DNA from: Candidatus Odinarchaeota archaeon
GTDB taxonomy: Archaea; Asgardarchaeota; Odinarchaeia; Odinarchaeales; Odinarchaeaceae
Reading direction: 5' to 3'
Length of the DNA stretch: 16,094 nt
Assembly (NCBI GenBank): GCA_038826135.1
Contig: JAWBON010000027.1
Coordinates: forward strand, 1 to 16,094
Shown here: positions 17-13,312 of the stretch, piece by piece
Layout: every line of letters starts with the position of its first letter
Numbering within the stretch: position 1 is the first letter of the stretch
Program-made: the position numbers and the translations under genes
Notes under the pieces: model-generated
What the model saw: only the letters and a program-made list of their open reading frames with translations
What the model was told of the DNA's origin: nothing
Database searches by the model: none

Positions 17-1795
17 TTGGTTAAGAGGCAGCCGATTATCGCGGTTTTAGGTCACATAGATACTGGTAAAACATCCCTGCTAGATAAAATCAGGGGGACA
101 GCGGTTCAACTTAGAGAGGCTGGTGGAATAACCCAGCATGTAGGCGCCAGTTATTTACCGATAGAAACTATAAAAGAACTCTGTGGAAGCCTTCTTGAAA
201 GATTAAACGTCGAATTAACAATACCCGGCTTACTTATAATAGACAGTCCGGGTCACGCGGTGTTCATGAATCTGAGGAAGCGGGCTGGTAGTGTTTGCGA
301 TCTAGCTGTTTTAGTTGTTGATTTAACAGCTGGTTTTCAACCCCAAACATATGAGTCTATAAACATACTTAAAGAGCGTAAAACTCCTTTTGTTCTGGTT
401 GCGAATAAGGTTGATCTAATACCTGGTTGGAAACCTACTTCGGACGCATGCTTCCTAGATAGTTTCAAAAACCAAGATAAACAGGTTATAAAAGACTTGG
501 ACGCCAGAATATACGAGATCATCGGTAATCTTTCAATACTCGGTCTCCAGTCCGAGCGCTTTGATAGAGTGCAAGATTTTACAAGGAATATTGCAATAGT
601 CCCCACAAGCGCTAAAACAGGTGAAGGTATACCCGAGTTATTAATGGTGTTAGCAGGGTTAGCTCAACAGTATTTAGCTAAAAAACTAGAGTTAAAGGAG
701 GAACCGGCTAGAGGAGTTATTTTAGAGGTTAAAGAGGAGCCTGGTTTAGGCATAGCCGCTGATACAATAATATATAATGGTGTGCTTAGAAAAGGCGATA
801 TTATAGTAGTAGGAACTTTAACAGAGCCTTTAGTTACAAAAATTAAAGTTATACTTAAACCTAAACCCTTAGATGAGATACGTGACCCCCGTGAGAAATT
901 TGATTCTGTGGATGAGGTTTGGGCTGCAGCTGGTGTTAAAATAGTAGCAGCGGGGTTCGAGCAAATTATAGCCGGAGCGCCTATTATCGCTGTTTCAACG
1001 GATTCAGATACTCAAAAAGCAGCTGCGGAAATTAAAGATGAAATTAGTAAAATAAGAATAAGCACCGATAAAACAGGGATAGTTCTAAAAGCTGATGCCT
1101 TAGGTTCACTGGAGGCGATTATAGGATATTTCAAGGAGAGAGGATGTCAGATAAGGATAGCTGACGTAGGCGATGTTTCGAAAAGAGATGTCATAGAAGC
1201 TGAAGTTGTCCGAGAGGAGGATCCCTACGCTTCGATTATTCTAGCCTTTAATGTGAAGGTTCTCCCAGATGCTAGGGAGGAGGCTGAACTGAAGAACATC
1301 CCTATCATCAAGAGCAACATCATATACGATTTATTTGATAAATATGATGAATGGGTTAGATTAAAACGCGAGGAAGCTAGGAAAAAAGCGTTTGAAAATA
1401 TAATTTTACCGGGTAAATTCGAGATATTACCCGGTTATGTTTTTAGAACAAGTAAACCCGCGATTGTTGGTGTAAAGGTATTAGCAGGTAAAATATCCAC
1501 TAAAGTCGGATTAATCAATTCCGACGGGGAGAAGATTGGTGAAATACTTCAAATCCAAGACAAGGGGCAAAGCCTTCAAAAAGCGTATGCAGGGCAATCA
1601 GTAGCTATCTCTATAAAAGGACCCACAGTAGGGCGTCAAATAAACGAAGGAGATGTTTTATTCATAGATGTGCCGGAAAGTGATGTGCGAGTTCTAAACA
1701 CAAAGCTTTCAGCCGAACTCACTTCAGATGAAAAAGAGAGTCTTGAAGAGTTTATTAGAATTAAAAGGAAAACTAATAAGTTCTGGGGAATTTAG
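17..1795 (+). CDS. infB: Translation initiation factor aIF5B (IF-2)
   Basis: 592 aa from a TTG start, with a GAAGGTGA Shine-Dalgarno (SD)-like site at 3-10. N-terminal RQPIIAVLGHIDTGKT, EAGGITQHVGA, IDSPGH, NKVD and SAKTGEG GTPase motifs; KADALGSLEAI; C-terminal FRTSKPAIVGV. Confidence 0.97.
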   Translation: MVKRQPIIAVLGHIDTGKTSLLDKIRGTAVQLREAGGITQHVGASYLPIETIKELCGSLLERLNVELTIPGLLIIDSPGHAVFMNLRKRAGSVCDLAVLVVDLTAGFQPQTYESINILKERKTPFVLVANKVDLIPGWKPTSDACFLDSFKNQDKQVIKDLDARIYEIIGNLSILGLQSERFDRVQDFTRNIAIVPTSAKTGEGIPELLMVLAGLAQQYLAKKLELKEEPARGVILEVKEEPGLGIAADTIIYNGVLRKGDIIVVGTLTEPLVTKIKVILKPKPLDEIRDPREKFDSVDEVWAAAGVKIVAAGFEQIIAGAPIIAVSTDSDTQKAAAEIKDEISKIRISTDKTGIVLKADALGSLEAIIGYFKERGCQIRIADVGDVSKRDVIEAEVVREEDPYASIILAFNVKVLPDAREEAELKNIPIIKSNIIYDLFDKYDEWVRLKREEARKKAFENIILPGKFEILPGYVFRTSKPAIVGVKVLAGKISTKVGLINSDGEKIGEILQIQDKGQSLQKAYAGQSVAISIKGPTVGRQINEGDVLFIDVPESDVRVLNTKLSAELTSDEKESLEEFIRIKRKTNKFWGI

Positions 1796-1805
1796 ATGAA
1801 CCCTG

Positions 1806-1844
1806 ATTATACTATTAAAATCTGTTTTCTTCAAATAGTATAAT
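1806..1844. other. Perfect 11-bp inverted repeat (ATTATACTATT / AATAGTATAAT, 17-nt spacer) between infB and rps6e
   Basis: Arms at 1806-1816 and 1834-1844 are exact reverse complements. Function unknown: terminator, processing hairpin or operator. Confidence 0.45.
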
Positions 1845-1913
1845 TTAAATACGGTTCAATAGAATTCTTTCTTGAATTAATTATATTTTAACTTAGTAGC
1901 GGAGGTTTATTCA

Positions 1914-2306
1914 ATGCCCGAGTTTAAACTAGTTATCTCAGATAAAGAGACAGGTAAGACTGTTCAGATACCGGTTAAAGACGCTAAAGCGAATGCTCTA
2001 ATAGGTCGTAAAGTAAACGAGGTTATTTCAGGTGATCTAATAGGATTAGCTGGATACGAGCTTAAAATAACAGGCGGTAGCGATCGTGACGGTTTTCCAA
2101 TAAGAGCTGATGTTCAAGGAACTGCTAGAAAAGCGGTATTTATATCTAGCGGGTCAGGTATTAGAGATAAAGAAGTTAGAAGAAGAAAATATGTTAGAGG
2201 CAACACTATTTCCCCGGATATAGTTCAGATTAACATGGTTATTACTAAAAAAGGTAAACGATCATTAGAGGAGCTTACCGGTTTAAAAGAGGGGGCCTCT
2301 CAATAA
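1914..2306 (+). CDS. rps6e: 30S ribosomal protein S6e (eS6)
   Basis: MPEFKLVISD start, LKITGGSDRDGFP and RRKYVRGN motifs; GGAGGT SD at 1901-1906. Confidence 0.96.
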   Translation: MPEFKLVISDKETGKTVQIPVKDAKANALIGRKVNEVISGDLIGLAGYELKITGGSDRDGFPIRADVQGTARKAVFISSGSGIRDKEVRRRKYVRGNTISPDIVQINMVITKKGKRSLEELTGLKEGASQ

Positions 2307-2328
2307 ATTAAAATGAGGCGCGTCTGTA

Positions 2329-3600
2329 ATGCCTAAAACTGTTGAAAAAAAATATAGTATAGGCCAAGCGGTGGTTAATATAGGTGTGGTAGGGCATGTT
2401 GACCACGGTAAGACTACACTAGTCCATGCTATAACAGGTGAGTGGACTGATAGGCATAGTGAAGAGATAAAAAGAGGTATATCAATTAAACTAGGCTACT
2501 CTGATATTACAATTTTTAAATGCCCGAAATGCTCTGAGCCTGAATCATATACAACAAAGAACCTGTCCCCTGACTTGAAATGTTTGAAATGTGGCGTGGA
2601 GTTAGTGCCTGAAAGAAAAATATCATTTGTAGACGCGCCTGGACACGAGGTTCTCATGGCCACAGTAATCTCCGGCGCCTCTTTAATGGATGGTGCTTTA
2701 CTTATAATAGCGGCTAATGAAAAATGTCCACAACCACAAACTCGTGAACATTTAGCAGTCCTCCAGATCACAGGGATAAAGAATATTATAATAGTTCAAA
2801 ATAAAGCGGAACTGGTTAGTGAAAAAGAGGCTTTAGAAAACTATAAGCAGATTAAACAATTTGTTAAAGGAACAGTCGCTGAAAACGCTCCGATTATTCC
2901 CACATCCGCTATTTTCAAGAAAAACATAGATCTAGTCCTTTACGCTATTCAAAAATATATTCCAACCCCTAAAAGGGATGATAGTAAACCTTTGTTAATG
3001 TATGTTACCAGGTCATTCGATGTTAATAAACCCGGCTGTGAACCTAAAGACCTTCAAGGGGGTGTGTTAGGGGGGTCAATAATTCAGGGTAAGTTGAAAG
3101 TGGGGGATGTGATAGAAGTACGCCCGGGGATAAAAATAGACAAGTCCGGTGTCTCAACATATAATCCGATAACAACAACGGTTACGAGTTTACAGGGTGG
3201 TGGAGTCTACTTAGAAGAAGCAAGGCCTGGTGGACTTATAGGCGTTGGAACAAAACTCGACCCATCGTTAACCAAGGCGGATGGTTTTATAGGTAACATG
3301 GTTGGAAAGAGTGATAGTTTACCGCCTGTACTAGATGAGCTTACGCTCACCGTCAACTTGATGCAGAGAGTTGTAGGAACAAACGAGCTTCTTCAAGTTG
3401 ATAATATCCAGTTGAAGGAGCCTCTTATGGTGAATGTAGGCGCTGCTGTGACAGTGGGGGTTGTAACAAAAGTTTCAAGTAACCAAATTACTTTAAAGCT
3501 TAAAAGACCGGTATGCGGTGAACCTAATCAGAGAGTAGCTATAAGCCGTCAGATAAAAGGGAGATGGAGGCTTATAGGGTGGGGTGAATTAATAGCGTGA
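2329..3600 (+). CDS. eif2g: Translation initiation factor aIF2 subunit gamma
   Basis: NIGVVGHVDHGKTT, DRHSEEIKRGISIKLGY, CPKC/CLKC zinc ribbon, FVDAPGHE, RSFDVNKPG and C-terminal RWRLIGWG. Confidence 0.97.
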   Translation: MPKTVEKKYSIGQAVVNIGVVGHVDHGKTTLVHAITGEWTDRHSEEIKRGISIKLGYSDITIFKCPKCSEPESYTTKNLSPDLKCLKCGVELVPERKISFVDAPGHEVLMATVISGASLMDGALLIIAANEKCPQPQTREHLAVLQITGIKNIIIVQNKAELVSEKEALENYKQIKQFVKGTVAENAPIIPTSAIFKKNIDLVLYAIQKYIPTPKRDDSKPLLMYVTRSFDVNKPGCEPKDLQGGVLGGSIIQGKLKVGDVIEVRPGIKIDKSGVSTYNPITTTVTSLQGGGVYLEEARPGGLIGVGTKLDPSLTKADGFIGNMVGKSDSLPPVLDELTLTVNLMQRVVGTNELLQVDNIQLKEPLMVNVGAAVTVGVVTKVSSNQITLKLKRPVCGEPNQRVAISRQIKGRWRLIGWGELIA

Positions 3601-3602
3601 CA

Positions 3603-3618
3603 CCCTTTCTTCAAAGGG
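3603..3618 (+). terminator. Short hairpin CCCTTT-CTTC-AAAGGG followed by a pyrimidine run, directly after the eif2g stop
   Basis: 6-bp stem with a 4-nt loop, then CTTTCT. The terminator or attenuator role is an inference. Confidence 0.3.
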
Positions 3619-3651
3619 CTTTCTCGTTGAGCGGTTTAATAAGGCGTTCAT

Positions 3652-4053
3652 ATGATTATAAAGATTTTAATAGACACAAATTTTCTCATTCTCCCGTTAA
3701 AAACTGGAAAAAATTTTAAGATACAACTTGATAATTTAATAGGATTCAACTATGAACTGCTGGTTTTAACAGATTCTATAAATGAGCTTGCGTACGTGGA
3801 GCCGAGGCTCTTCGAAAACATTAAGGCGAACAACTCACTTATTGAAACGCTATGGCCTGGAATAAAAATAGTGAACGCCGAGTCAACTCTTATTAACAAT
3901 GTAGATGATAGAATAGTCGAATACGCTGTTAAAAACAATTGCGCTGTAGCTACAAACGACGCATCCTTAAGATCAAGGTTGAGAAAAAACAACGTTACTA
4001 CAATATATTTAAGGCATAAAAGCCATTTAGCAATAGACGGAAACATTGGTTAA
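3652..4053 (+). CDS. PIN-domain ribonuclease (Fcf1/Utp24-like, conserved downstream of aIF2-gamma)
   Basis: ILIDTNFL, NEL, VDD and VATND supply the PIN acidic residues; this is the usual archaeal position after eif2g. Confidence 0.85.
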   Translation: MIIKILIDTNFLILPLKTGKNFKIQLDNLIGFNYELLVLTDSINELAYVEPRLFENIKANNSLIETLWPGIKIVNAESTLINNVDDRIVEYAVKNNCAVATNDASLRSRLRKNNVTTIYLRHKSHLAIDGNIG

Positions 4054-4225
4054 AACAGGTTTTTCTCGAATTAATTAAATGGAATATAAATATTTATAAA
4101 GAAAAAAAATCATTCATTGCCAGCGTTAAAATTATTCCCGTCAAATAAGACTGTAAAATTTATTAAATTAGTAGGGTAGAAGTGACCAAAATATTTAACG
4201 CGTGCAGTAAAGGTATGATTATAAG

Positions 4226-4233
4226 TTTATAAA
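4226..4233 (+). promoter_or_regulatory. TATA box candidate for the rpo7-spt4-DUF359-rps24e-rps27ae unit
   Basis: TTTATAAA about 48 nt upstream of the rpo7 start, in an AT-rich intergenic region. Confidence 0.45.
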
Positions 4234-4280
4234 TGCTCGTTAATAAAAATAGTTCTATAATGTTTAAGAGGCTGGTTTAA

Positions 4281-4865
4281 TTGTATAAGCTATTAACAGT
4301 GAAAGATAATATTCGTATCCCTCCATCCCGTTTTAGAGAAGATATTGAGAAAGTCTCTCTGGAAATCCTAAGAGAAGAGTATGAGGGTGTTATGACCACG
4401 GAATTAGGTTTCATAGTAGCTATTATAAAAGTTTTAGAACTCGGCCCTGGAAAGATTATTCCAGGAGATGGCGCGACATATCATAACGTAATATTCGAAG
4501 CCTTAGCGTTTAAACCAGAACTTCAGCAAATAGTTGAAGGAGAGGTTGTTGAGGTTGTCGACTTCGGGGTTTTTATCAGGCTAGGACCATTAGACGGTTT
4601 ATGTCATGTAAGCCAGGTAACTGACGACTTTATCAGCTACGATCAGAAAAGATCAGCTTTACTGGGCAAAGAGAGCGGTCGCGTAATATCGGTTGGCGAT
4701 CATGTAAGAGCTAGAATCATAGCGGTGAGCTTGAAGGGCGGTTCTAGAAGCGGTAAAATAGGGTTAACCATGAGGCAGCCTTACCTGGGTAAAATTGAAT
4801 GGATTAAAGCTGATATTAAAAAAATTCTAGAGGCGAAGGAGCCTAAAAAATCAAAGGCTAGTTAA
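4281..4865 (+). CDS. rpo7: DNA-directed RNA polymerase subunit Rpo7 (E')
   Basis: TTG start; VRIPP-like NIRIPP, IIPGDGATY, S1 domain FGVFIRLGPLDGLCHVSQV and C-terminal KIGLTMRQPYLGK. Confidence 0.96.
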   Translation: MYKLLTVKDNIRIPPSRFREDIEKVSLEILREEYEGVMTTELGFIVAIIKVLELGPGKIIPGDGATYHNVIFEALAFKPELQQIVEGEVVEVVDFGVFIRLGPLDGLCHVSQVTDDFISYDQKRSALLGKESGRVISVGDHVRARIIAVSLKGGSRSGKIGLTMRQPYLGKIEWIKADIKKILEAKEPKKSKAS

Positions 4866-4876
4866 CGGTGATCTAA

Positions 4877-5062
4877 GTGAAAGATAGGGCTTGTAAAACA
4901 TGTAGAAAAATAATAAAGGGTCAAATATGCCCTACTTGTAAAACATACACTTTATCATATGAGTATGACGGGCTTGTTATAATAAATGACCATCAAAACT
5001 CGCAGATTGCTGAAAAATTAAATATTAATGAGAACGGTAAATATGCGTTGAAGGTAAGATAG
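4877..5062 (+). CDS. spt4: Transcription elongation factor Spt4 (RpoE'')
   Basis: 61 aa from a GTG start; ACKTC..CPTC zinc finger, SQIAEKLNI and GKYALKVR; directly follows rpo7. Confidence 0.94.
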   Translation: MKDRACKTCRKIIKGQICPTCKTYTLSYEYDGLVIINDHQNSQIAEKLNINENGKYALKVR

Positions 5063-5595
5063 TGAAGACACTGAAAATAACACGTAAATTAAGATATTAT
5101 TTAAAGAAACCCCTCGGCCGCCTAATACCATTAGAGCATATGGGTAATATAGAGCTGTTAAAAGAAGTGTTGAAAAAAGAGAAACCTGTAAAACTGATCT
5201 CTGTAGGTGATATAGTAACAGACAGTCTGATCAAGAATAATATTGAACCTGATTTATACATAGTTGATGGGCGAACTTTAAGAGGTGAATTCAACTCTCA
5301 ACCAGCTAGAGCGTGTAGCATAAAAGTGATTAATCCACCTGGAACAATTAATTCTTCAGTGTGGATGGTGATCGGAAGCTGTTTAGAAAAAGAGGACAAA
5401 ATAGGCATATTCGTGGAGGGTGAGGAAGATTTATTAGTACTTCCGTCCGTTATACTAGCGCCATTAGGCGCGGTAGTGATTTACGGTCAGCCTAATAAAG
5501 GTGTAGTTATAGTAAAAGTGGATCAAGAGATTAAAAACAAAGTTCAAAAAATTTTATGTTTAATGGAGGAAGTTGTCAATGGGCAAGGATTTTGA
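5062..5595 (+). CDS. DUF359 family protein, GTP-dependent dephospho-CoA kinase
   Basis: LKKPLG, ISVGDIVT, IVDGRT, NPPGTI, VEGEEDL and YGQPNKG motifs; conserved position after spt4. Confidence 0.9.
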   Translation: MKTLKITRKLRYYLKKPLGRLIPLEHMGNIELLKEVLKKEKPVKLISVGDIVTDSLIKNNIEPDLYIVDGRTLRGEFNSQPARACSIKVINPPGTINSSVWMVIGSCLEKEDKIGIFVEGEEDLLVLPSVILAPLGAVVIYGQPNKGVVIVKVDQEIKNKVQKILCLMEEVVNGQGF

Positions 5596-5911
5596 AGTAA
5601 AAGAAGATGTGAAAAATCCTTTACTCAAACGTAGAGAGTTAACTATTATAATAAATCACGCTGGAACCGGCACCCCTAACAGATTAGAGGTTAGGAAAAA
5701 AGTGTCTTCAAAACTTAATGAAGATTTAGAGAAGGTTTATGTAACAAAAGTAGTGGAACTACCAGACCATAATAGTTGCAAGGTCTTAGCTCACGTCTAC
5801 GATAATAAAGAGACTGCTTTAAAGATTGAACAGCAATATATTATAAAAAGAAACACTGAAAATAAAACTGAAGCGGAAAGCGCTGAGTCTAAATCTGAAT
5901 CTGTCAGCTAA
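5579..5911 (+). CDS. rps24e: 30S ribosomal protein S24e (eS24)
   Basis: [17 protein letters not shown] and AHVYDN motifs. Start moved from TTG 5573 to ATG 5579 because of the GGAGGA SD at 5565-5570; overlaps the DUF359 3' end. Confidence 0.94.
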
Positions 5912-5946
5912 AAGCTGAAGATAAAAACATGGGAGGAGGTATAATC

Positions 5947-6114
5947 TTGACAGTTAAAGATTATTTCAAAGTAGAAGGTGATAAAATAATTCGTTTAAAG
6001 AGAAACTGTCCAAGATGCGGTCCAGGCACGTATATGGCGGAGCACGGTGACAGGTTTTCATGCGGAAAATGCGGTTGGACTGTTTTCAAAAAACAGGATA
6101 AGAGTGAAAAATAA
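5947..6114 (+). CDS. rps27ae: 30S ribosomal protein S27ae (eS31), stand-alone with no ubiquitin fusion
   Basis: [20 protein letters not shown] zinc ribbon. The track start is ATG 5929, but its 'GGG' codons (GGAGGAGGT) look like an SD for TTG 5947. Confidence 0.93.
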
Positions 6115-6137
6115 AACGGGGGGAGGGCTAATAAAAT

Positions 6138-6671
6138 TTGTTTAAAAAAATAAATGATCAGACTCTTCTAGCTCTAGCCCAACTGTTAGAGCTTGATATA
6201 GATACAGGCGTGCTCAGAGTATTCAATCAAAGGGTCGGTATATTCCCACTCACCTCTGTTCTACAATTATTCGAAGAGATTAAAACACAAGTAGGCTCCA
6301 AGAAATTCAACGATATAATTAAAAATGCGGGGATAAAATTCGGAGAGAAACTATTAGATACTATACTTTCATTAGATGAAGAGGATTTAATCGAGTTAAA
6401 CCCGCTTCAAGGACGGGAAGCCATATCTAAAATACTCTCATTCTTCGGTTTCGGTAAAATAGAATATATCACGGAATCTCAAAGTAATGTCGCCGTTCTC
6501 AACTACTATAATTCACCTGCCAGTGAGATAGATAATAATATTTTCTGTATTCTCATAACCGGTATAATAGAGGGCATATTAAGTAAATTATATGATAAAA
6601 AGGTTGAAGTTGAAGAAATAAAGTGTGTTAAGAAGAAGAATGACTTCTGTTCTTTCAAAATATTCATGTAG
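6138..6671 (+). CDS. V4R-domain protein
   Basis: C-terminal FFGFGKIE...NSP...FC.LITGIIEGILS......VEVEEIKC......C.F pattern typical of V4R; TTG start with a GGAGG SD. Confidence 0.75.
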   Translation: MFKKINDQTLLALAQLLELDIDTGVLRVFNQRVGIFPLTSVLQLFEEIKTQVGSKKFNDIIKNAGIKFGEKLLDTILSLDEEDLIELNPLQGREAISKILSFFGFGKIEYITESQSNVAVLNYYNSPASEIDNNIFCILITGIIEGILSKLYDKKVEVEEIKCVKKKNDFCSFKIFM

Positions 6672-6691: not shown

Positions 6692-7288
6692 TTACGCAGC
6701 CCCTGACGGCCTAGCTACCATTTTACTCTTTCTAACCTCGCATTTACGGAGAGGCACTATTTTTTTAGCTTCATTATATATTTCCGATCCGATCTTACCC
6801 AATACAGTTTCATGAACAAATTGCTCGAAGTTTAATTCACCCGCTTTTCTATAAACAATATCCTTCATGATTCCCCTAATCGCCTGCTCTTGGCTTGTTT
6901 TAGCTCTACTATGGGTGAAAGCGATTGTGGAAACTATAAGCTTATAACCGTCTTTAGTGGTGACGCTGAATCGCCCGTCTATTCTGGTGGTCCCTCTTCT
7001 CACTAGACTTCTTAAATAATCCCTGGTTAAATCATGACCTTTAAATATAGTGTACGCCTTATTCCCTTGAACCTCTGTTATTTGAAGAAATATTTTAACA
7101 TGTATCAGTGATATGTCCCCGGTTATATCGTAAAGTGTTGTCTCTACAACCCTGCCTATAACCGCATCTTTAACATTTGCAGGCGTCTGCCCGATTTCAA
7201 TGTTTCCAAGATACTTTGGCGAGACAACTGTGAAAAACTCCTTCATCACCCATCGATCCTTTGAAGCTGTGCCTTTAGTTTTAGACAT
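6692..7288 (-). CDS. rps3ae: 30S ribosomal protein S3ae (eS1)
   Basis: KDRWVMKE, GRVVETTLYDITGD, DYLRSLVRRGTTRID and IVPLRKCEVRK; GGAGGA SD at 7300-7295. Confidence 0.96.
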   Translation of the reverse strand: MSKTKGTASKDRWVMKEFFTVVSPKYLGNIEIGQTPANVKDAVIGRVVETTLYDITGDISLIHVKIFLQITEVQGNKAYTIFKGHDLTRDYLRSLVRRGTTRIDGRFSVTTKDGYKLIVSTIAFTHSRAKTSQEQAIRGIMKDIVYRKAGELNFEQFVHETVLGKIGSEIYNEAKKIVPLRKCEVRKSKMVARPSGAA

Positions 7289-7357
7289 TTAACATCCTCC
7301 ACAAGCTGATTACTATACTTATGAACTTTATACCAGTTATCTTAATGCTTTAAATAT

Positions 7358-7365
7358 TTTATAAA
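7358..7365 (-). promoter_or_regulatory. TATA box candidate for an internal rps3ae promoter
   Basis: TTTATAAA about 70 nt upstream of the rps3ae start, in the pcc1-rps3ae gap. Confidence 0.35.
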
Positions 7366-7462
7366 CGATTCAACGCTTCAACCTACGAACGCCACTTTTC
7401 TCGTTAAAGTTGAGGAAGCTATTTAATCCGTTTATCAAATACTATTTATAAATATACTTGTT

Positions 7463-7717
7463 TTACTCTCCAGCCGGTTTCACACGCTCCCTTAAATAAA
7501 CTATAAGATCATCTAAAACAGTTACGGCTTGATTAATTTCATGTGTTAATTGAAATATTATTTCCAAGTTATTGTTAGAAAATACTTTAATATTATTACC
7601 ATCCACACTTTTAACAGCGTCTTTTAGACTTTCCTGAAATTGTTTCAAATCCAAGCTTCTAACCTCTTCCTTTAATACTAGTTTTAATTTAACCTCTTTC
7701 AACAATCTGTTCTCCAC
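7463..7717 (-). CDS. pcc1: Probable divergent KEOPS subunit Pcc1
   Basis: 84 aa, the right size. It fills the known archaeal rps15-recJ-pcc1-rps3ae slot, and the C-terminal helix (AVTVLDDLIVYL) resembles Pcc1. Sequence similarity is weak, so the call rests mostly on synteny. Confidence 0.6.
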   Translation of the reverse strand: MENRLLKEVKLKLVLKEEVRSLDLKQFQESLKDAVKSVDGNNIKVFSNNNLEIIFQLTHEINQAVTVLDDLIVYLRERVKPAGE

Positions 7718-9164
7718 CTATCTGCTTATTGATAATCTTATTCAAATAAGATGTAAATGTATCCTCGCTGCCTATAGGTATCTCAGCTCCGGCTGCTATA
7801 TCGTGACCTCCAGCCTCAACTGTCTTCAATCCCATTTCTGTAACAGCAGTTTTTAAAGCATGGTTTAAATTTAATCCTTTTTTAACAAGCTCGTCGGTGC
7901 CTCTAACCGAAACCTTAACCCCATCACCCTCACTCTTATAAGCGAAGCATAAAAGCACTTTGTTTGCAGTTTGCGAGATAATCCTAGAATATATTGAGGC
8001 AATAGTGGCGATCATCCTATCGTCTATAACATCCTCGCCGTGGATTATTTTCAACCATTCGATCTCTCTTATCCTACCGGGCTCTCTCAGCCAGGCTATA
8101 TACTTTGAAATCCTCTGCCTGTACTCGTTGATAACATTCTGCGCTTCTGTAATTGATGTAGACCGGTCTCCTAAACAAAGTGATATCGCTAACCCAGTGT
8201 ATCCTAACCTACCGCAAGCGTTGAGCGTGTACGCGTATTCTCTTATATCTCTAAGAAAAGAACCCTCCTCCTCTTCTGTGATAATATATTTCGTCCCTAT
8301 TAACTGCTCGGCAATTTTAGTGTCAAACCCTAACTGCAACATATAAGTGACTAAAGAACTGTATAATTTTACTTTTTCATCCTGAGTTAAGTCGGATAGG
8401 GTTCTCCAATCAGAGTCTTTTTTTAAAGGGATTTTTAGATTAGTTAAGAACGCTATACACTTATCTTCTTCACCAGTCAAACCCTCTATAAAAGGGTCAC
8501 TAGTATATTTAAGCGCCAGATGTATTGGGCGTGTCTCCGACCCGAAGAGGAGAATGTCCTTGACAACTTTCACAAGCCCTTCTTTAACAGCGTCGTTAAG
8601 TACAATATCGTTATTTACACCTGTAAAAGAGCGTTGCGGCCCCTTATCTTGAACATCACCGACAGCTCCCACTAAAGCAATAGGGGATAAGTCGATGTTT
8701 CTATGATTTAAAGCCTTAGCTAAAATATAGCTTGTACCTGAACCGCTAATCTCACTGGACCCGTTTAAACCATAGTAGTGAGGGTTTAATTCTAGTATTT
8801 TTTCAGAATCCTGATGTTGCACGGTTTCATGATGGTCCACTATGAAAACGATTGCTTTATCTTTCAAAACTCTAGAAATATTATCTATCTGGCCGCTTCC
8901 CATATCCAGAAAAACATAGATTTTATTTTCAGCGTCTTTCTCTAATGATTTAATCTCGTTTAATCCTAGTTTCTTAACTATCCTCGCGCAGAATCTGGCA
9001 TTTTCCCGTGCAAGAGCTTTTACAATTATACTAGCAGCTGATATTCCATCAGCATCTATGTGAGATATTACCGTTATATGCTTGTTTTCGCTGATAAACT
9101 CTCTAAGCCACCCAGCTATTTCATCCGCTTTTTTCAGTAAACTAGAATATCTATTATTAGACAT
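7689..9164 (-). CDS. RecJ/Cdc45-like DHH-DHHA1 nuclease (GAN-type)
   Basis: DHH motifs SHIDADG, FLDMGSG, IVDHH and GAVGD; DHHA1 motifs KVSVRG and AGGHDIAAGA. It lies between rps15 and pcc1, the position of GAN in Thermococcales. Confidence 0.88.
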   Translation of the reverse strand: MSNNRYSSLLKKADEIAGWLREFISENKHITVISHIDADGISAASIIVKALARENARFCARIVKKLGLNEIKSLEKDAENKIYVFLDMGSGQIDNISRVLKDKAIVFIVDHHETVQHQDSEKILELNPHYYGLNGSSEISGSGTSYILAKALNHRNIDLSPIALVGAVGDVQDKGPQRSFTGVNNDIVLNDAVKEGLVKVVKDILLFGSETRPIHLALKYTSDPFIEGLTGEEDKCIAFLTNLKIPLKKDSDWRTLSDLTQDEKVKLYSSLVTYMLQLGFDTKIAEQLIGTKYIITEEEEGSFLRDIREYAYTLNACGRLGYTGLAISLCLGDRSTSITEAQNVINEYRQRISKYIAWLREPGRIREIEWLKIIHGEDVIDDRMIATIASIYSRIISQTANKVLLCFAYKSEGDGVKVSVRGTDELVKKGLNLNHALKTAVTEMGLKTVEAGGHDIAAGAEIPIGSEDTFTSYLNKIINKQIGGEQIVERG

Positions 9165-9198
9165 ACCGCTTTTAAACCATTAAAATTATTTAAAGGCG

Positions 9199-9654
9199 TT
9201 AGCGAATAACCATCGCTTTATCCATAGACGTATACTTCCAGTTAGCTGGAAGCATATTCTTACTCTTATAGTATTCTGTTAACCTGCGTATTTTACTTTC
9301 AATTAATTGTAATCCTCGTTTAGAGTGAAAGTCTTTAGGATGCTCTTCTAAATGTGTTTTTAAGCCTTGAGCTTTTCTAATCAAGTTAGATAAGTCTTCA
9401 GGAAACTGCGGTGCTAAACCCTTCTCCCTCAGTATTTGTGTAATCTTCTTATTAGCTATATTCTTGGTTAATGGAATACCGTGCTGGTCTCTTAAAATTA
9501 AACCGATTTTAGAGGCGGTTTCACCGCTTCTGGCGTATTTAACTATAAGCGCCTCAACCTCCTCAGATGTTCTAGTACACCATTCCGGTGCTTTTTTAAG
9601 AGGCGGTCTTACTGATTTAGATTTACCACGCCTTTTAGAATGCATTCTCGCCAT
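9199..9654 (-). CDS. rps15: 30S ribosomal protein S15 (uS15/S13e)
   Basis: [50 protein letters not shown] and LPANWKY. Confidence 0.97.
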
Positions 9655-9699
9655 ATTTATTCACCGAATCAGAGATAAGATATAATTCAAACAATCTTT

Positions 9700-10257
9700 T
9701 TAAACTTTTCTCAGAAATTCACCTAATATTCTAAGCGCCTTAGATCTATGGGATAATCTGTTTTTCTCCGGCAGCGTCATCTCAGCGTATGTTCGGCCAT
9801 CTCCTTCAGACGGTATGAATATAGGGTCGTAACCCCATCCTGTTCCTCTAATATTTCGGGCGATCACCCCCTCCGTCTCCCCTGTGATTATCTTTAACAT
9901 GTTATCAGTGTCTTTGAAAGCTATTACAGTTTTAAAAACAGCGCTCCTATCCGTCTCCCCCTTCATTAATTTTATTATTCCCCCGTTACCTATCGTCTTA
10001 AACACGTATGATGAGAATGGGCCTGGAAAACCGTTTAAACGGGTTATGAATAATCCTGTATCTTCAACGAAAACAGGCTGTTTAAAATCTTTAGTTATCT
10101 GGTTTAGACTATAAGAGGCTATCTCCTTTAAATCTGGTGACTGGATTTCTATTCTTTGAATATTTAAATGAGCTAACTCCACACCGTATTCTGCTAGAAT
10201 CATTTTGGCTTCTTCAACCTTGTGTACGTTTCCTGTTGCGAAATAAATTTTACACAT
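9700..10257 (-). CDS. rdgB: XTP/dITP diphosphatase (RdgB/HAM1 family)
   Basis: FATGNVHKVEE, EIQS, VEDTGL, GFPGPFS, GWGYDPIF and KNRLSHR motifs. Confidence 0.95.
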   Translation of the reverse strand: MCKIYFATGNVHKVEEAKMILAEYGVELAHLNIQRIEIQSPDLKEIASYSLNQITKDFKQPVFVEDTGLFITRLNGFPGPFSSYVFKTIGNGGIIKLMKGETDRSAVFKTVIAFKDTDNMLKIITGETEGVIARNIRGTGWGYDPIFIPSEGDGRTYAEMTLPEKNRLSHRSKALRILGEFLRKV

Positions 10258-10262
10258 TATAT

Positions 10263-10895
10263 TTACCCTCTATCAGAGATGTAGCGTCCCCTTTTCTCTA
10301 TTATAATTATTCTTCTTATAACATCTTCAGCTTCACTCCCAGCGGTCTCCTTGTACCCTTCTAATATATCTCTGAAACTTTTCGAAGCTACCCTGAAATG
10401 CGTGCTCTCTAAAGCTCTCTTCATTAAATGCAAATCAACGCCTTTGCTTTCAACATCTGTTGAATGCTCGCATAATCCGAAATCAATGAAGTAAATATTG
10501 CCGTTACTCGTCAAAAGAATATTTGAAGTAGTTAAATCACCGTGAATTAAACCATTCCTGTGCAGTAAGCCGATCATATTTCCTATGCGCTTATTTAACA
10601 CGCGTCTTTCAACCTCATTCAGCTTCTCTAATATATTTTTCACTTTAACCCCTTCAATATACTCGTATATGATACGCGTGTTCTTCAAATCCACATCGTA
10701 CACAATCGGTGTGGGAACCCCCACCGCTCTAGCCTCATTCATCATCCTAGCTTCGAGTATAGTCCTATATGTTCTAAGCTTAGAGTCTAGGGTGGGGTGA
10801 CGGTAATTTTTTTTAACCCTCTCTTTTATAATAACATCAAAACCATACCATTTACTTTTATAAAGACAAGCTTCAGCTCCTTTAGCTATCAGCAT
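10263..10895 (-). CDS. bud32: KEOPS kinase/ATPase Bud32 (PRPK)
   Basis: KGAEA, IIKERVKKNYRHP.LD, LIHGDLTTSN, IDFGL and GVDLHL. Confidence 0.96.
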   Translation of the reverse strand: MLIAKGAEACLYKSKWYGFDVIIKERVKKNYRHPTLDSKLRTYRTILEARMMNEARAVGVPTPIVYDVDLKNTRIIYEYIEGVKVKNILEKLNEVERRVLNKRIGNMIGLLHRNGLIHGDLTTSNILLTSNGNIYFIDFGLCEHSTDVESKGVDLHLMKRALESTHFRVASKSFRDILEGYKETAGSEAEDVIRRIIIIEKRGRYISDRG

Positions 10896-10901
10896 CTAAA
10901 T

Positions 10902-11905
10902 CTATCTCCAAGGTATGTCTATTTCGTCAAGTCTCCATTTAGGGCGAATATGGCTCTCAGAGATCGGTGTGGTTTTACCGGACTTCATGTAAAGCATACC
11001 CGTCCAAGCGATCATTAAACCGTTATCACCCGAATACTCTCTAGGAACCACTTGGAAATTAGCATCATGCTCCTCAGATATTATTTTAATCATCTGTTGA
11101 AGTCTTTTATTAGCCGCCACACCCCCTGTTAACAGAACATCCTTTTTCTCCGTGTGAGCTAAAGCTCTCTCCGTAACCTCAGCTAGCATTGCGAAAGCTG
11201 TTTCCTGGATACTGTAACATAAATCCTCTATTTTATATTTTTTAACCATACTTGATATCGCTGTAAGAAGCCCTGAGTAAGATAGATCCATTCCCTTAAC
11301 TATGTAAGGTAAATCTATCAGCACCCTGCCTTTTTCAGCGTAAGCTTCTATCTTAGGCCCACCAGGGTGTTTAAAACCCATTAACCTGGAGAAACTGTCT
11401 AGAAGATTTCCTATGGCAAGATCCAAGGTTTCGCCGAAAACCCTGTATCTACCAGAATCGAAAGCTGCGACAATTGTATTACCGCCTGAAACATATAATG
11501 TCAGCGGGTCTTCTGTATTCGTAGACCTCCTCCCTATCTCTATATGAGCTATACAGTGATTTACACCTATAAGAGGTATCTTCAACATCATTGATAACGT
11601 CCTAGCTATTATAGCCCCCGCCCTCAGACAAGGCCCTTTAAGCGCTTAAATTAGATTTAAGCTAAACCCGGGCCTTGAGAGAATGCTACAAAATCGAAAT
11701 CTGAAAGATCTAGTTTACCGCTTTTAAGAGCCTCCCTTATAGCTTTATCAGCATTTTCAAGATGATGCTGCACCGCCTCTCTTGGATGTATCCCACCGGT
11801 TACTGGAATATAGGTTTTCTGAATGTTCACTGTTCTCTTAAAATCTTCATCAGTGACCCCTACACCGAACGTGTGAGCGGTAGCTTCAATACCTAATCCG
11901 AGCAT
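10902..11905 (-). CDS. kae1: tRNA t6A37 threonylcarbamoyltransferase Kae1, predicted spliced: exon 1 11905-11664, exon 2 11637-10902, 325 aa
   Basis: Exon 1: MLGLGIEATAHTFG, GGIHPREA..HH, AFSQGPG. Exon 2: GPCLR, GVNHCIAHIE, LYVSGGNT, GETLD.A.GN.LD, GGVAAN, DNGLMIA. 242 + 736 = 978 nt = 326 codons. ATG 11905 is preceded by a GGAGTG SD-like site; ATG 11920 is an alternative start. Confidence 0.93.
11638..11663 (-). other. 26-nt bulge-helix-bulge (tRNA-type) intron in kae1
   Basis: mRNA sense: CAAGGCCC-GGGU-UU|A-GCUUAAAU-CUA-AUUUAAGC-GCUU-AA|A-GGGCCUUG. This gives an 8-bp exon helix, a 4-bp central helix, two 3-nt bulges and an 8-bp intron helix. Cutting after the 2nd nt of each bulge restores GGU-UUA-GGG (G-L-G). 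Confidence 0.9.
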
Positions 11906-12101: not shown

Positions 12102-12617
12102 ATGGCTGCATATAAGTTTAAAATAGCGTTAGTCGGGGACGGCGCTGTTGGGAAAACCTCTCTGATCATAAAATTTGTTGAAAACATGTTTAAACACGAA
12201 TATAAGTCAACGATCGGTGTAGACATTTTCACCAAGTCTGTTACAATAGATAAGAATGATGTGTTAATGACTCTCTGGGATATAGCCGGTCAAGAAAGAT
12301 TTAAAGTAATCAGGAAAGGTTTTTTCGACGGTGCTGCTGGAGCTATAATAGTCTACGATATTACTAGAAAGGAAACATTTGAAAATGTAGATGCCTGGTT
12401 GAAAGAAGTTGAAGAGTTCACAGGGCCAGTACCTATGATTATATGCGGTAATAAAATAGATCTAGCTGATAAACGTCAAGTTTCAACCAAGCAGGGAAGC
12501 AGCTACGCTAATAAGCTTAAGAAAACATTTATAGAGACTAGTGCTAAGACTGGTGAAAACGTTGAAAACGCTTTCGTCGAACTGTGTAGTGAAATACTGT
12601 CTGCACGGAAAAAATAA
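12102..12617 (+). CDS. Rab-like small GTPase A (Ras superfamily, eukaryotic-signature protein)
   Basis: G1 GDGAVGKT, G2 YKSTIGVD, G3 WDIAGQERF, G4 GNKID, G5 ETSAK; Rab-type IVYDIT; no C-terminal cysteine motif. Confidence 0.93.
   Translation: MAAYKFKIALVGDGAVGKTSLIIKFVENMFKHEYKSTIGVDIFTKSVTIDKNDVLMTLWDIAGQERFKVIRKGFFDGAAGAIIVYDITRKETFENVDAWLKEVEEFTGPVPMIICGNKIDLADKRQVSTKQGSSYANKLKKTFIETSAKTGENVENAFVELCSEILSARKK
12535..12574 (+). repeat. 40-nt direct repeat, copy 1 (G5 region of GTPase A)
   Basis: AGACTAGTGCTAAGACTGGTGAAAACGTTGAAAACGCTTT; 39/40 identical to 13092-13131. Confidence 0.9.
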
Positions 12618-12634
12618 GTCTGCTGGTGAGATTG

Positions 12635-13312
12635 ATGTCATCTGCGACTGGTGTTGAAACACATTTCGTGTTCAAAGTACTCTTACTAGGCGATGGCGCT
12701 GTCGGCAAAACATCGCTTATCTCCATGTTCACAAAAGGCTTCATAAAACAGGACTATAAAATGACGATCGGCGTCGATATAATGGCTAAAACCGTGAGAG
12801 TTGACGATAAGATAGCTAAACTCTCAATATGGGATTTAGCTGGGCAGCAACGGTTTAAAGCTATAAGAAGTGCTTTTTACGGCGGTGTAGCTGGAGCGCT
12901 GCTTGTATTCGATTTAACTAGGGCTTTAACGTTTAAGAATTTAATAAACTGGCTTCAAGAACTCTACCAGTACGGCAACCCTGAATGCCCGACCATCCTC
13001 ATAGGTAATAAATCCGATTTAGCCGAGCTGAGAGATGTTCGACAAGAAGACATAGACTGGTTTGTATCCGAGATCGGTAGCGAATACATACAGACTAGTG
13101 CTAAGACTGGTGACAACGTTGAAAACGCTTTTATAAGTTTAACTAGGAAAATGATTGAGAAATCAATGGGTAAAAAAATAAAAGTTGTTAAAAGTCAGGA
13201 TGAAGGTAAATATTACACATCTGTTGAAACCAACAACAAGGAGTCAACCTCTAAAACTGAACAGCCGAGTTCAAATCAAAAAAATATTTTAAACCAAGGC
13301 TCCAATCCGTAA
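12635..13312 (+). CDS. Rab-like small GTPase B with a ~50-aa polar C-terminal tail
   Basis: G1 GDGAVGKT, G2 YKMTIGVD, G3 WDLAGQQRF, G4 GNKSD, G5 QTSAK; LVFDLT. ATG 12635 is preferred over GTG 12626 because of the GGTGAG SD at 12625-12630. Confidence 0.92.
   Translation: MSSATGVETHFVFKVLLLGDGAVGKTSLISMFTKGFIKQDYKMTIGVDIMAKTVRVDDKIAKLSIWDLAGQQRFKAIRSAFYGGVAGALLVFDLTRALTFKNLINWLQELYQYGNPECPTILIGNKSDLAELRDVRQEDIDWFVSEIGSEYIQTSAKTGDNVENAFISLTRKMIEKSMGKKIKVVKSQDEGKYYTSVETNNKESTSKTEQPSSNQKNILNQGSNP
13092..13131 (+). repeat. 40-nt direct repeat, copy 2 (G5 region of GTPase B)
   Basis: AGACTAGTGCTAAGACTGGTGACAACGTTGAAAACGCTTT; single mismatch (C13114 vs A12557). Confidence 0.9.

What the first reader, a model, noticed from the sequence alone, without database searches (positions are those of the whole stretch)
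11638..11669. The intron closes all three reading frames, making Kae1 synthesis splicing-dependent
Seen in sequence: UAA stops occur in frame 0 (11659-11657 and 11653-11651), in the exon-2 frame (11648-11646) and in the third frame (11640-11638). Unspliced mRNA therefore yields only an 82-aa fragment lacking the HCIAH metal-binding motif. Established: Kae1 makes t6A37, and Cbf5, the other known host of an archaeal mRNA intron, is also an RNA-modifying enzyme. Inference: the intron may tie t6A capacity to EndA/RtcB activity. Because kae1 is the first gene of the minus-strand cluster, splicing or unligated cleavage could also affect expression of bud32, rdgB and genes further down.
Basis: partly seen in the sequence, partly recalled or inferred. 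Interest (0 to 1): 0.62.

Follow-up and report, generated by a model that had tools for sequence, protein, structure and literature searches.

The report
tRNA-type intron in Asgard kae1
The normally essential tRNA-modification gene kae1 of this Asgard archaeon is interrupted by a 26-base tRNA-type intron that very probably must be cut out of the mRNA, something published inside a coding sequence only for cbf5; but its stop codons in all three frames are a by-product of an AU-rich hairpin, and nothing yet shows a regulatory switch.

Summary
The four UAA stops and the 82-aa truncation are as described. Removing 11663-11638 at the cut sites of a canonical bulge-helix-bulge (BHB) motif restores a 325-aa Kae1 colinear with solved archaeal Kae1. 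All 17 genomes with a detectable kae1 in four Asgard families (Odinarchaeia, Jordarchaeia/Freyarchaeia) carry a 13-32-nt insert inside the same Leu codon. Across 23 distinct introns the synonymous exon positions stay paired (20/23 and 21/23, against 23/62 and 19/62 in intronless genes). The genome encodes two EndA subunits and RtcB. The intron is therefore very likely real, and splicing is obligatory: all 23 frameshift or stop when retained. Three-frame closure is neither the cause nor conserved (4/23, one genus; six have no internal stop; 28% under a hairpin-preserving null). Its one use is to exclude simple ribosomal frameshifting here. The regulatory argument weakens: BHB-shaped inserts also split gcvPA, citG, UPF0147 and gatA, cbf5 is intact, and kae1 heads the cluster only in this genus among the loci with mapped neighbours. 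No paper found reports it; this scan had already noted the same-site kae1 intron in other Asgard genomes. No RNA evidence.

The parts
11664..11905 (-). kae1 exon 1 (80 codons plus the first two bases of Leu81)
   Evidence: Aligns to residues 1-80 of solved archaeal Kae1 2ivn_A, E 3e-18; Pfam TsaD profile 6-62
11638..11663 (-). 26-nt BHB intron; cuts after the 2nd base of each bulge (UU^A, AA^A)
   Evidence: BHB-predicted removal restores GPGLGPCLR and a 325-aa ORF; top hit of two genome-wide BHB scans; same-site inserts in 17 genomes
10902..11637 (-). kae1 exon 2 (last base of Leu81 to stop), holds HCIAH at 11558-11544
   Evidence: Aligns to residues 81-324 of 2ivn_A, E 3e-82; Pfam TsaD 64-264
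11670..11677 (-). Exon helix h, 5' arm (CAAGGCCC)
   Evidence: Formed in the MFE fold at 37-80 C; synonymous positions covary
11629..11636 (-). Exon helix h, 3' arm (GGGCCUUG)
11666..11669 (-). Central 4-bp helix H, exon side (GGGU); pairs with GCUU 11643-11640 through three G.U and one G-C
   Evidence: 4/4 pairs in 22 of 23 orthologues with changing pair types; BHB fold 1.4 kcal/mol above MFE at 37 C
11640..11643 (-). Central helix H, intron side (GCUU)
11644..11662 (-). Intron helix h' (8 bp, 3-nt loop); its UUAAA/UUUAA arms supply the stops at 11659-11657 and 11648-11646
11657..11659 (-). First in-frame UAA; ends the unspliced product at 82 aa
11646..11648 (-). UAA in the exon-2 frame; with the previous stop it closes a single-frameshift route in this genome
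11586..11591 (-). Internal ATG-ATG (Met97-Met98) opening a 229-aa ORF that gene callers would take as a separate gene; not conserved
   Evidence: ATG in 4 of 23
10263..10895 (-). bud32-like kinase gene, 6 nt after the kae1 stop
   Evidence: Pfam RIO1/Pkinase; follows kae1 in nearly all loci with or without intron
9700..10257 (-). rdgB/Ham1 gene
   Evidence: Pfam Ham1p_like E 1.6e-45

Best explanation
A cbf5-type mRNA intron handled by the tRNA-splicing machinery, mainly as a housekeeping step. The nascent kae1 mRNA folds into a canonical hBHBh' (shown as sequence and covariation). The two-subunit EndA cuts after the second base of each bulge and RtcB joins the exons, rebuilding the Leu81 codon UUA (inferred from BHB geometry and established EndA chemistry). 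Unspliced RNA gives an 82-aa dead end, so Kae1 depends on splicing, but this follows from the frameshift or in-frame stop and holds for every orthologue. The stops in the two unread frames are a by-product of UUAA palindromes in an AU-rich hairpin and of the bulge sequences. The site probably exists because the invariant QGPGLGPC codons already encode most of a helix, so an inserted intron can be removed exactly, and it persists because the residue block tolerates no imprecise loss (inferred). One gain with later losses, or two gains, both fit the tree.
For: Removal at BHB cut sites restores a gap-free Kae1. 17 of 17 kae1-positive genomes of families f1, f2, f7, f19 have the insert in the same codon, with none found at this site in the other Asgard genomes or in a sample of 401 genomes of the Bathyarchaeia-containing phylum. 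23 distinct introns, 13-32 nt: central helix 4/4 in 22; bulges YUR and NRA throughout. Synonymous exon positions paired 20/23 vs 23/62 (p 5e-5) and 21/23 vs 19/62 (p 4e-7), with all four Watson-Crick types at the Gly/Gly site. 20 introns shift the frame and the three 30-nt ones have an in-frame stop. EndA catalytic and structural subunits and RtcB present. Three-frame closure only 4/23, null 0.28, and also seen in an untranslated tRNA-Pro intron candidate. BHB-shaped inserts in unrelated metabolic genes. Precedent for near-constitutive splicing: HVO_1309 (PMC10485636).
Against: No spliced read or cleavage assay. The central helix in this genus has three G.U pairs and is open in the MFE fold (BHB 1.4-2.3 kcal/mol above MFE). 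The p-values treat related genomes as independent and overstate significance. Constitutive, non-regulatory splicing is inferred from the absence of conserved regulatory features, not measured.
Confidence: 0.72

Rival explanations
1. Real intron that also acts as a regulator: the spliced fraction tracks EndA/RtcB capacity or temperature and so sets Kae1/t6A supply, and possibly bud32 and rdgB by polarity or unligated cleavage.
For: Intron kept across four families although retention always kills the protein; many tRNA genes of this genome are called with introns and would compete for the same EndA; weak G.U-rich central helix in this genus could limit splicing; bud32 starts 6 nt after the kae1 stop; a negative-regulator role was proposed, not shown, for cbf5 (PMC2738675).
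Against: No conserved intron sequence, length or stop pattern; central helix is G-C-rich in f7 and f19; same kind of insert in gcvPA, citG, UPF0147, gatA and none in cbf5 here; kae1 is mid-operon in f7 and f19; the kae1-bud32-rdgB order is the same in intronless lineages.
Confidence: 0.2
2. No splicing: full-length Kae1 arises by programmed ribosomal frameshifting or bypass at the hairpin.
For: A single-frameshift route is open in 13 of 23 orthologues.
Against: Closed in this genome and six others (frame-0 stop 4 nt into the intron, exon-2 frame open only from nt 18), impossible for the three in-frame introns, and it would insert residues in the invariant GPGLGP block; it does not explain exact BHB geometry or covariation.
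Confidence: 0.03
3. Split gene: the 82-aa N-terminal piece and a re-initiated 229-aa C-terminal piece assemble into Kae1, or the gene is decayed or mis-assembled.
For: ATG-ATG at 11591 opens an ORF with HCIAH.
Against: Residues 82-96 would be lost, yet they are conserved; ATG present in only 4 of 23; same break in 17 independent assemblies including single-contig genomes, exon 2 at 65-88% identity with open frames, and no second kae1 in the genome.
Confidence: 0.04

Closest known systems
cbf5 pre-mRNA intron of Desulfurococcales/Sulfolobales (Watanabe 2002; Yoshinari 2006; Yokobori 2009, PMC2738675)
   Same: Short BHB intron inside a coding sequence, splitting a codon in a conserved motif; variable interior; host has a two-subunit EndA; host gene encodes an RNA-modifying enzyme; regulation proposed but not shown.
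   Different: Different gene and phylum (Asgard); canonical hBHBh' rather than the relaxed motif; one of several split genes in the genome; cbf5 itself is intact here; splicing not demonstrated. Some cbf5 introns keep the frame (33, 36, 39 bp), so frame closure is not a defining trait.
HVO_1309 mRNA intron of Haloferax volcanii (Schwarz 2020, PMC7714728; PMC10485636)
   Same: BHB in an mRNA cut by EndA; spliced RNA is the main product.
   Different: Lies in the 5' UTR and does not break a reading frame.
Archaeal tRNA BHB introns, abundant in Atabeyarchaeia/Freyarchaeia (PMC11291895)
   Same: Same motif and size range; present in many tRNA genes of this genome.
   Different: Substrate is an mRNA; no sequence match between the kae1 intron and a tRNA intron of this genome was found. 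That paper's main text does not mention kae1 or mRNA introns.

Membership tests
EndA-spliced BHB mRNA intron (cbf5 type) | Two 3-nt bulges separated by a 4-bp helix at the exon-intron borders | tested here: met
   GGGU/GCUU with bulges UUA and AAA, 8-bp flanking helices; central helix 4/4 in 22 of 23 orthologues. Weak in this genus (three G.U).
EndA-spliced BHB mRNA intron (cbf5 type) | Cuts between bulge bases 2 and 3 give the correct mature ORF | tested here: met
   Restores Leu81 and a 325-aa protein colinear with 2ivn_A; a Leu codon is rebuilt in all orthologues examined.
EndA-spliced BHB mRNA intron (cbf5 type) | Structure conserved by compensatory change while the intron interior varies | tested here: met
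   20/23 and 21/23 paired synonymous sites vs 23/62 and 19/62; lengths 13-32 nt.
EndA-spliced BHB mRNA intron (cbf5 type) | Host encodes a hetero-oligomeric EndA and a ligase | tested here: met
   PF01974 hits at C45 (185-aa subunit) and C48/C72 (one gene across overlapping contig ends); RtcB at C16; Asgard EndA reported as (alpha-beta)2 with L1 loop (PMC5829648).
EndA-spliced BHB mRNA intron (cbf5 type) | Spliced mRNA or in vitro cleavage demonstrated | not testable with these tools
   No RNA data available.
Regulatory (conditional) intron | Conserved regulatory sequence or stop architecture | tested here: not met
   Three-frame closure 4/23; exon-1-frame stop inside intron 10/23; operon position differs.
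Regulatory (conditional) intron | Spliced fraction changes with condition or EndA level | not testable with these tools
   Needs transcript data.
Programmed ribosomal frameshift site | Both frames open over a common stretch | tested here: not met
   Frame-0 stop at intron nt +4, exon-2 frame open only from +18.

The most novel reading that the evidence does not exclude
In Odinarchaeia and Jordarchaeia the tRNA-splicing endonuclease is a rate-limiting mRNA-splicing enzyme, and the kae1 intron forms a feedback loop that matches t6A-modifying capacity (and KEOPS partner Bud32) to tRNA-splicing load or temperature: a prokaryotic forerunner of regulated EndA/RtcB mRNA splicing in the lineage closest to eukaryotes.
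Probability: 0.15. Interest if true: 0.88.

Novelty: new member of a known kind. Interest (0 to 1): 0.58.

Why it matters
Published work lists one archaeal coding-sequence intron (cbf5) and one 5'-UTR case. A conserved intron in the universal t6A enzyme across four Asgard families, with similar inserts in several other genes of this genome, indicates that EndA/RtcB mRNA splicing is a routine part of gene expression in some relatives of eukaryotes. It means kae1 is likely to be called as split or truncated in these genomes, and it gives an exact junction that can be tested in existing metatranscriptomes (a complete Freyarchaeia genome with soil transcriptomes carries the 28-nt version). The three-frame stop pattern itself adds little beyond excluding frameshifting.

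Tried and rejected
Other 23/26/29/32-nt removals also reopen the frame, but only 11663-11638 (and its two sequence-equivalent slides) gives GPGLGPCLR, and only it matches BHB cuts. Three-frame closure as a selected trait: rejected. Three regex hits (L093, L216, L223) were not introns and were dropped. Same-site insert in the phylum of a Bathyarchaeia genome (401 sampled): 27 pattern hits, the 20 fetched were not kae1; the pattern would miss divergent motifs. Strict genome-wide BHB scan missed introns with weak exon helices; the relaxed scan found gcvPA, citG, UPF0147 and some untested candidates but excludes stop-free in-frame introns by design. No Rfam match in the window. Promoter/terminator scan uninformative (bacterial consensus, at chance level). 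No tRNA-intron donor for the kae1 intron found; tRNA intron boundaries there are rough motif calls. Kae1 tree: two intron clades, monophyly neither shown nor rejected (p-AU 0.22). Seven literature searches found no kae1 intron; most subscription papers are not searched. A second break in G141 kae1 is an assembly gap.

Full report
Observation. On the minus strand a gene starting at ATG 11905 reads as Kae1 up to AFSQGPGL and stops at TAA 11659-11657 after 82 aa; the rest of Kae1 continues in another frame to 10902. The closest named relative is an Odinarchaeia MAG (91% identity), so the window is from an Asgard archaeon.

The insert is a BHB intron. The junction folds as exon helix CAAGGCCC/GGGCCUUG, central helix GGGU/GCUU, bulges UUA and AAA, and an 8-bp intron hairpin. 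Cutting after the second base of each bulge, the established EndA rule (PMC2738675), removes 11663-11638 and rebuilds Leu81, giving 325 aa. Exon 1 aligns to residues 1-80 and exon 2 to 81-324 of solved archaeal Kae1 2ivn_A, with no gap between them. The site ranked first in two genome-wide BHB scans. The central helix has three G.U pairs and is open in the minimum-energy fold; the full BHB is 1.4 kcal/mol higher at 37 C. The genome encodes two EndA subunits and RtcB, matching the (alpha-beta)2 type reported for Asgard archaea (PMC5829648). No second kae1 was found.

Comparative evidence. Among 400 Asgard genomes, all 17 with a detectable kae1 in four families (own genus f1, same-order f2, and f7, f19) have an insert in the same codon; the five other pattern hits lack the kae1 context. 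f19 includes Ca. Jordarchaeum madagascariense and a complete Freyarchaeia genome. Metagenome contigs added six more variants. The 23 distinct introns are 13-32 nt with unrelated interiors; the central helix has 4/4 pairs in 22; bulge 1 is UUA, CUA or UUG and bulge 2 ends in A in all 23, while the matching Leu third base is A in 19 of 62 intronless genes. The two synonymous position pairs in the exon helix are paired in 20/23 and 21/23 intron genes against 23/62 and 19/62 intronless ones, and the Gly/Gly pair occurs as C-G, U-A, A-U and G-C. Relatives are not independent, so the p-values (5e-5, 4e-7) overstate, but several separate double changes are needed. On a Kae1 tree the intron genes form two clades (f1+f2; f7+f19); one origin is not rejected (p-AU 0.22).

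Does three-frame closure matter? Splicing dependence is general: 20 introns shift the frame and the three 30-nt ones carry an in-frame stop. Three-frame closure is not: stops wholly inside the intron close three frames in 4 introns (all this genus), two in 3, one in 10, none in 6; a metagenomic relative 92% identical in protein has lost the third-frame TAA by a change that turns a central G.U into G-C. Two of the four stops are the complementary UUAAA/UUUAA arms of one helix and one is the last helix U plus the bulge. Chance of closing three frames is 0.07 on base shuffling and 0.28 with the hairpin kept. A candidate tRNA-Pro intron, never translated, also closes three frames. Of other split genes here gcvPA closes none internally, citG one, UPF0147 two. 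The stops have one logical use: frame 0 closes at intron base +4 and the exon-2 frame opens only at +18, so a single frameshift cannot make Kae1 here; that route is open in 13 of 23 orthologues. That all three in-frame introns have a stop fits selection against an insertion-bearing Kae1, but three related cases do not prove it.

Regulation. Leads from earlier AI notes were checked: gcvPA has a 30-nt BHB insert with an in-frame TAG, UPF0147 a 27-nt one, citG 25 nt, and gatA is split with a 29-nt BHB-compatible insert, whereas cbf5 is intact. These were checked in this genome only, without covariation. Hosts are thus not confined to RNA-modifying enzymes. kae1 heads its cluster in this genus, where the kae1-to-rps3ae block points opposite to rps27ae, but intron-bearing kae1 in f7 and f19 follows rps24e-rps27ae, and kae1-bud32-rdgB is the order in intronless lineages too. 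A negative-regulator role was already proposed for the cbf5 intron without proof, and for HVO_1309 the spliced form is the major product. A conditional role is not excluded; the weak central helix, not the stops, would be the likeliest handle (inference).

Mechanism and novelty. Shown: sequence, geometry, frame restoration, distribution, covariation, enzyme genes. Inferred: EndA cutting, RtcB joining, largely constitutive splicing, and insertion at a site where the invariant QGPGLGPC codons already supply six of eight exon-helix pairs. The searched literature reports cbf5 and HVO_1309 only. This scan had noted same-site kae1 introns of 14, 25 and 30 nt in other Asgard genomes and a different-site one in a DPANN genome. 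Verdict: a new member of the cbf5 kind, about 92% likely to be a real spliced intron; the three-frame and regulatory reading is mostly unsupported.

Noticed in passing
G000:C60:2485-2456 (-); C79:1196-1220 (+); C5:10103-10077 (-); C35:9457-9485 (+): BHB-shaped inserts of 30, 25, 27 and 29 nt splitting gcvPA, citG, UPF0147 and gatA; removal restores the frame.
   Followed up: partly
G000:C23:14037-14012 (-) and C1:53889-53923 (+): Further candidates from the relaxed BHB scan (26 and 35 nt) that join long ORFs (268+347 and 241+271 codons); gene identity and conservation not checked.
   Followed up: no
G000:C16:2586-5357: RtcB gene has a 995-aa open frame with about 470 extra codons after profile position 50, as expected for an intein.
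   Followed up: no
G000:C48 start / C72 start: The EndA catalytic-subunit gene runs across two contigs whose ends overlap by about 127 bases, so C48 and C72 are probably adjacent.
   Followed up: partly
window 6692-11905 (-) versus 17-6671 (+): The block kae1-bud32-rdgB-rps15-DHH-(84-aa ORF)-rps3ae is inverted relative to rps24e-rps27ae, which precede kae1 on the same strand in many other Asgard loci; all four genomes of this genus have a divergent Ras-family gene upstream instead.
   Followed up: partly
window 7463-7717 (-): 84-aa ORF between DHH and rps3ae, the usual place of pcc1 (KEOPS subunit) in archaeal gene order by my recollection; Pfam and Atlas searches did not confirm it.
   Followed up: partly
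window 12102-13312 (+): Two tandem small-GTPase genes (first is Pfam Ras, E 4e-58), typical Asgard eukaryotic signature proteins.
   Followed up: no
window 11662-11656 and 11643-11637 (-): GCUUAAA occurs at both ends of the intron as a direct repeat; shared only within this genus.
   Followed up: partly
L036 (G139:C3:33657-33695): Shortest version of the kae1 intron, 13 nt; family f7 otherwise has 14 nt with a 2-bp hairpin.
   Followed up: partly
L005, L006, L014 (family f13): kae1 is intronless in this family, two of whose genomes are single 2.8-Mb contigs (possibly Atabeyarchaeia, reported to have very intron-rich tRNAs), so tRNA-intron load alone may not predict the kae1 intron.
   Followed up: no
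L062:3458-3459: One-base frameshift at Kae1 residue 232 in a Bathyarchaeia MAG, probably an assembly error.
   Followed up: no
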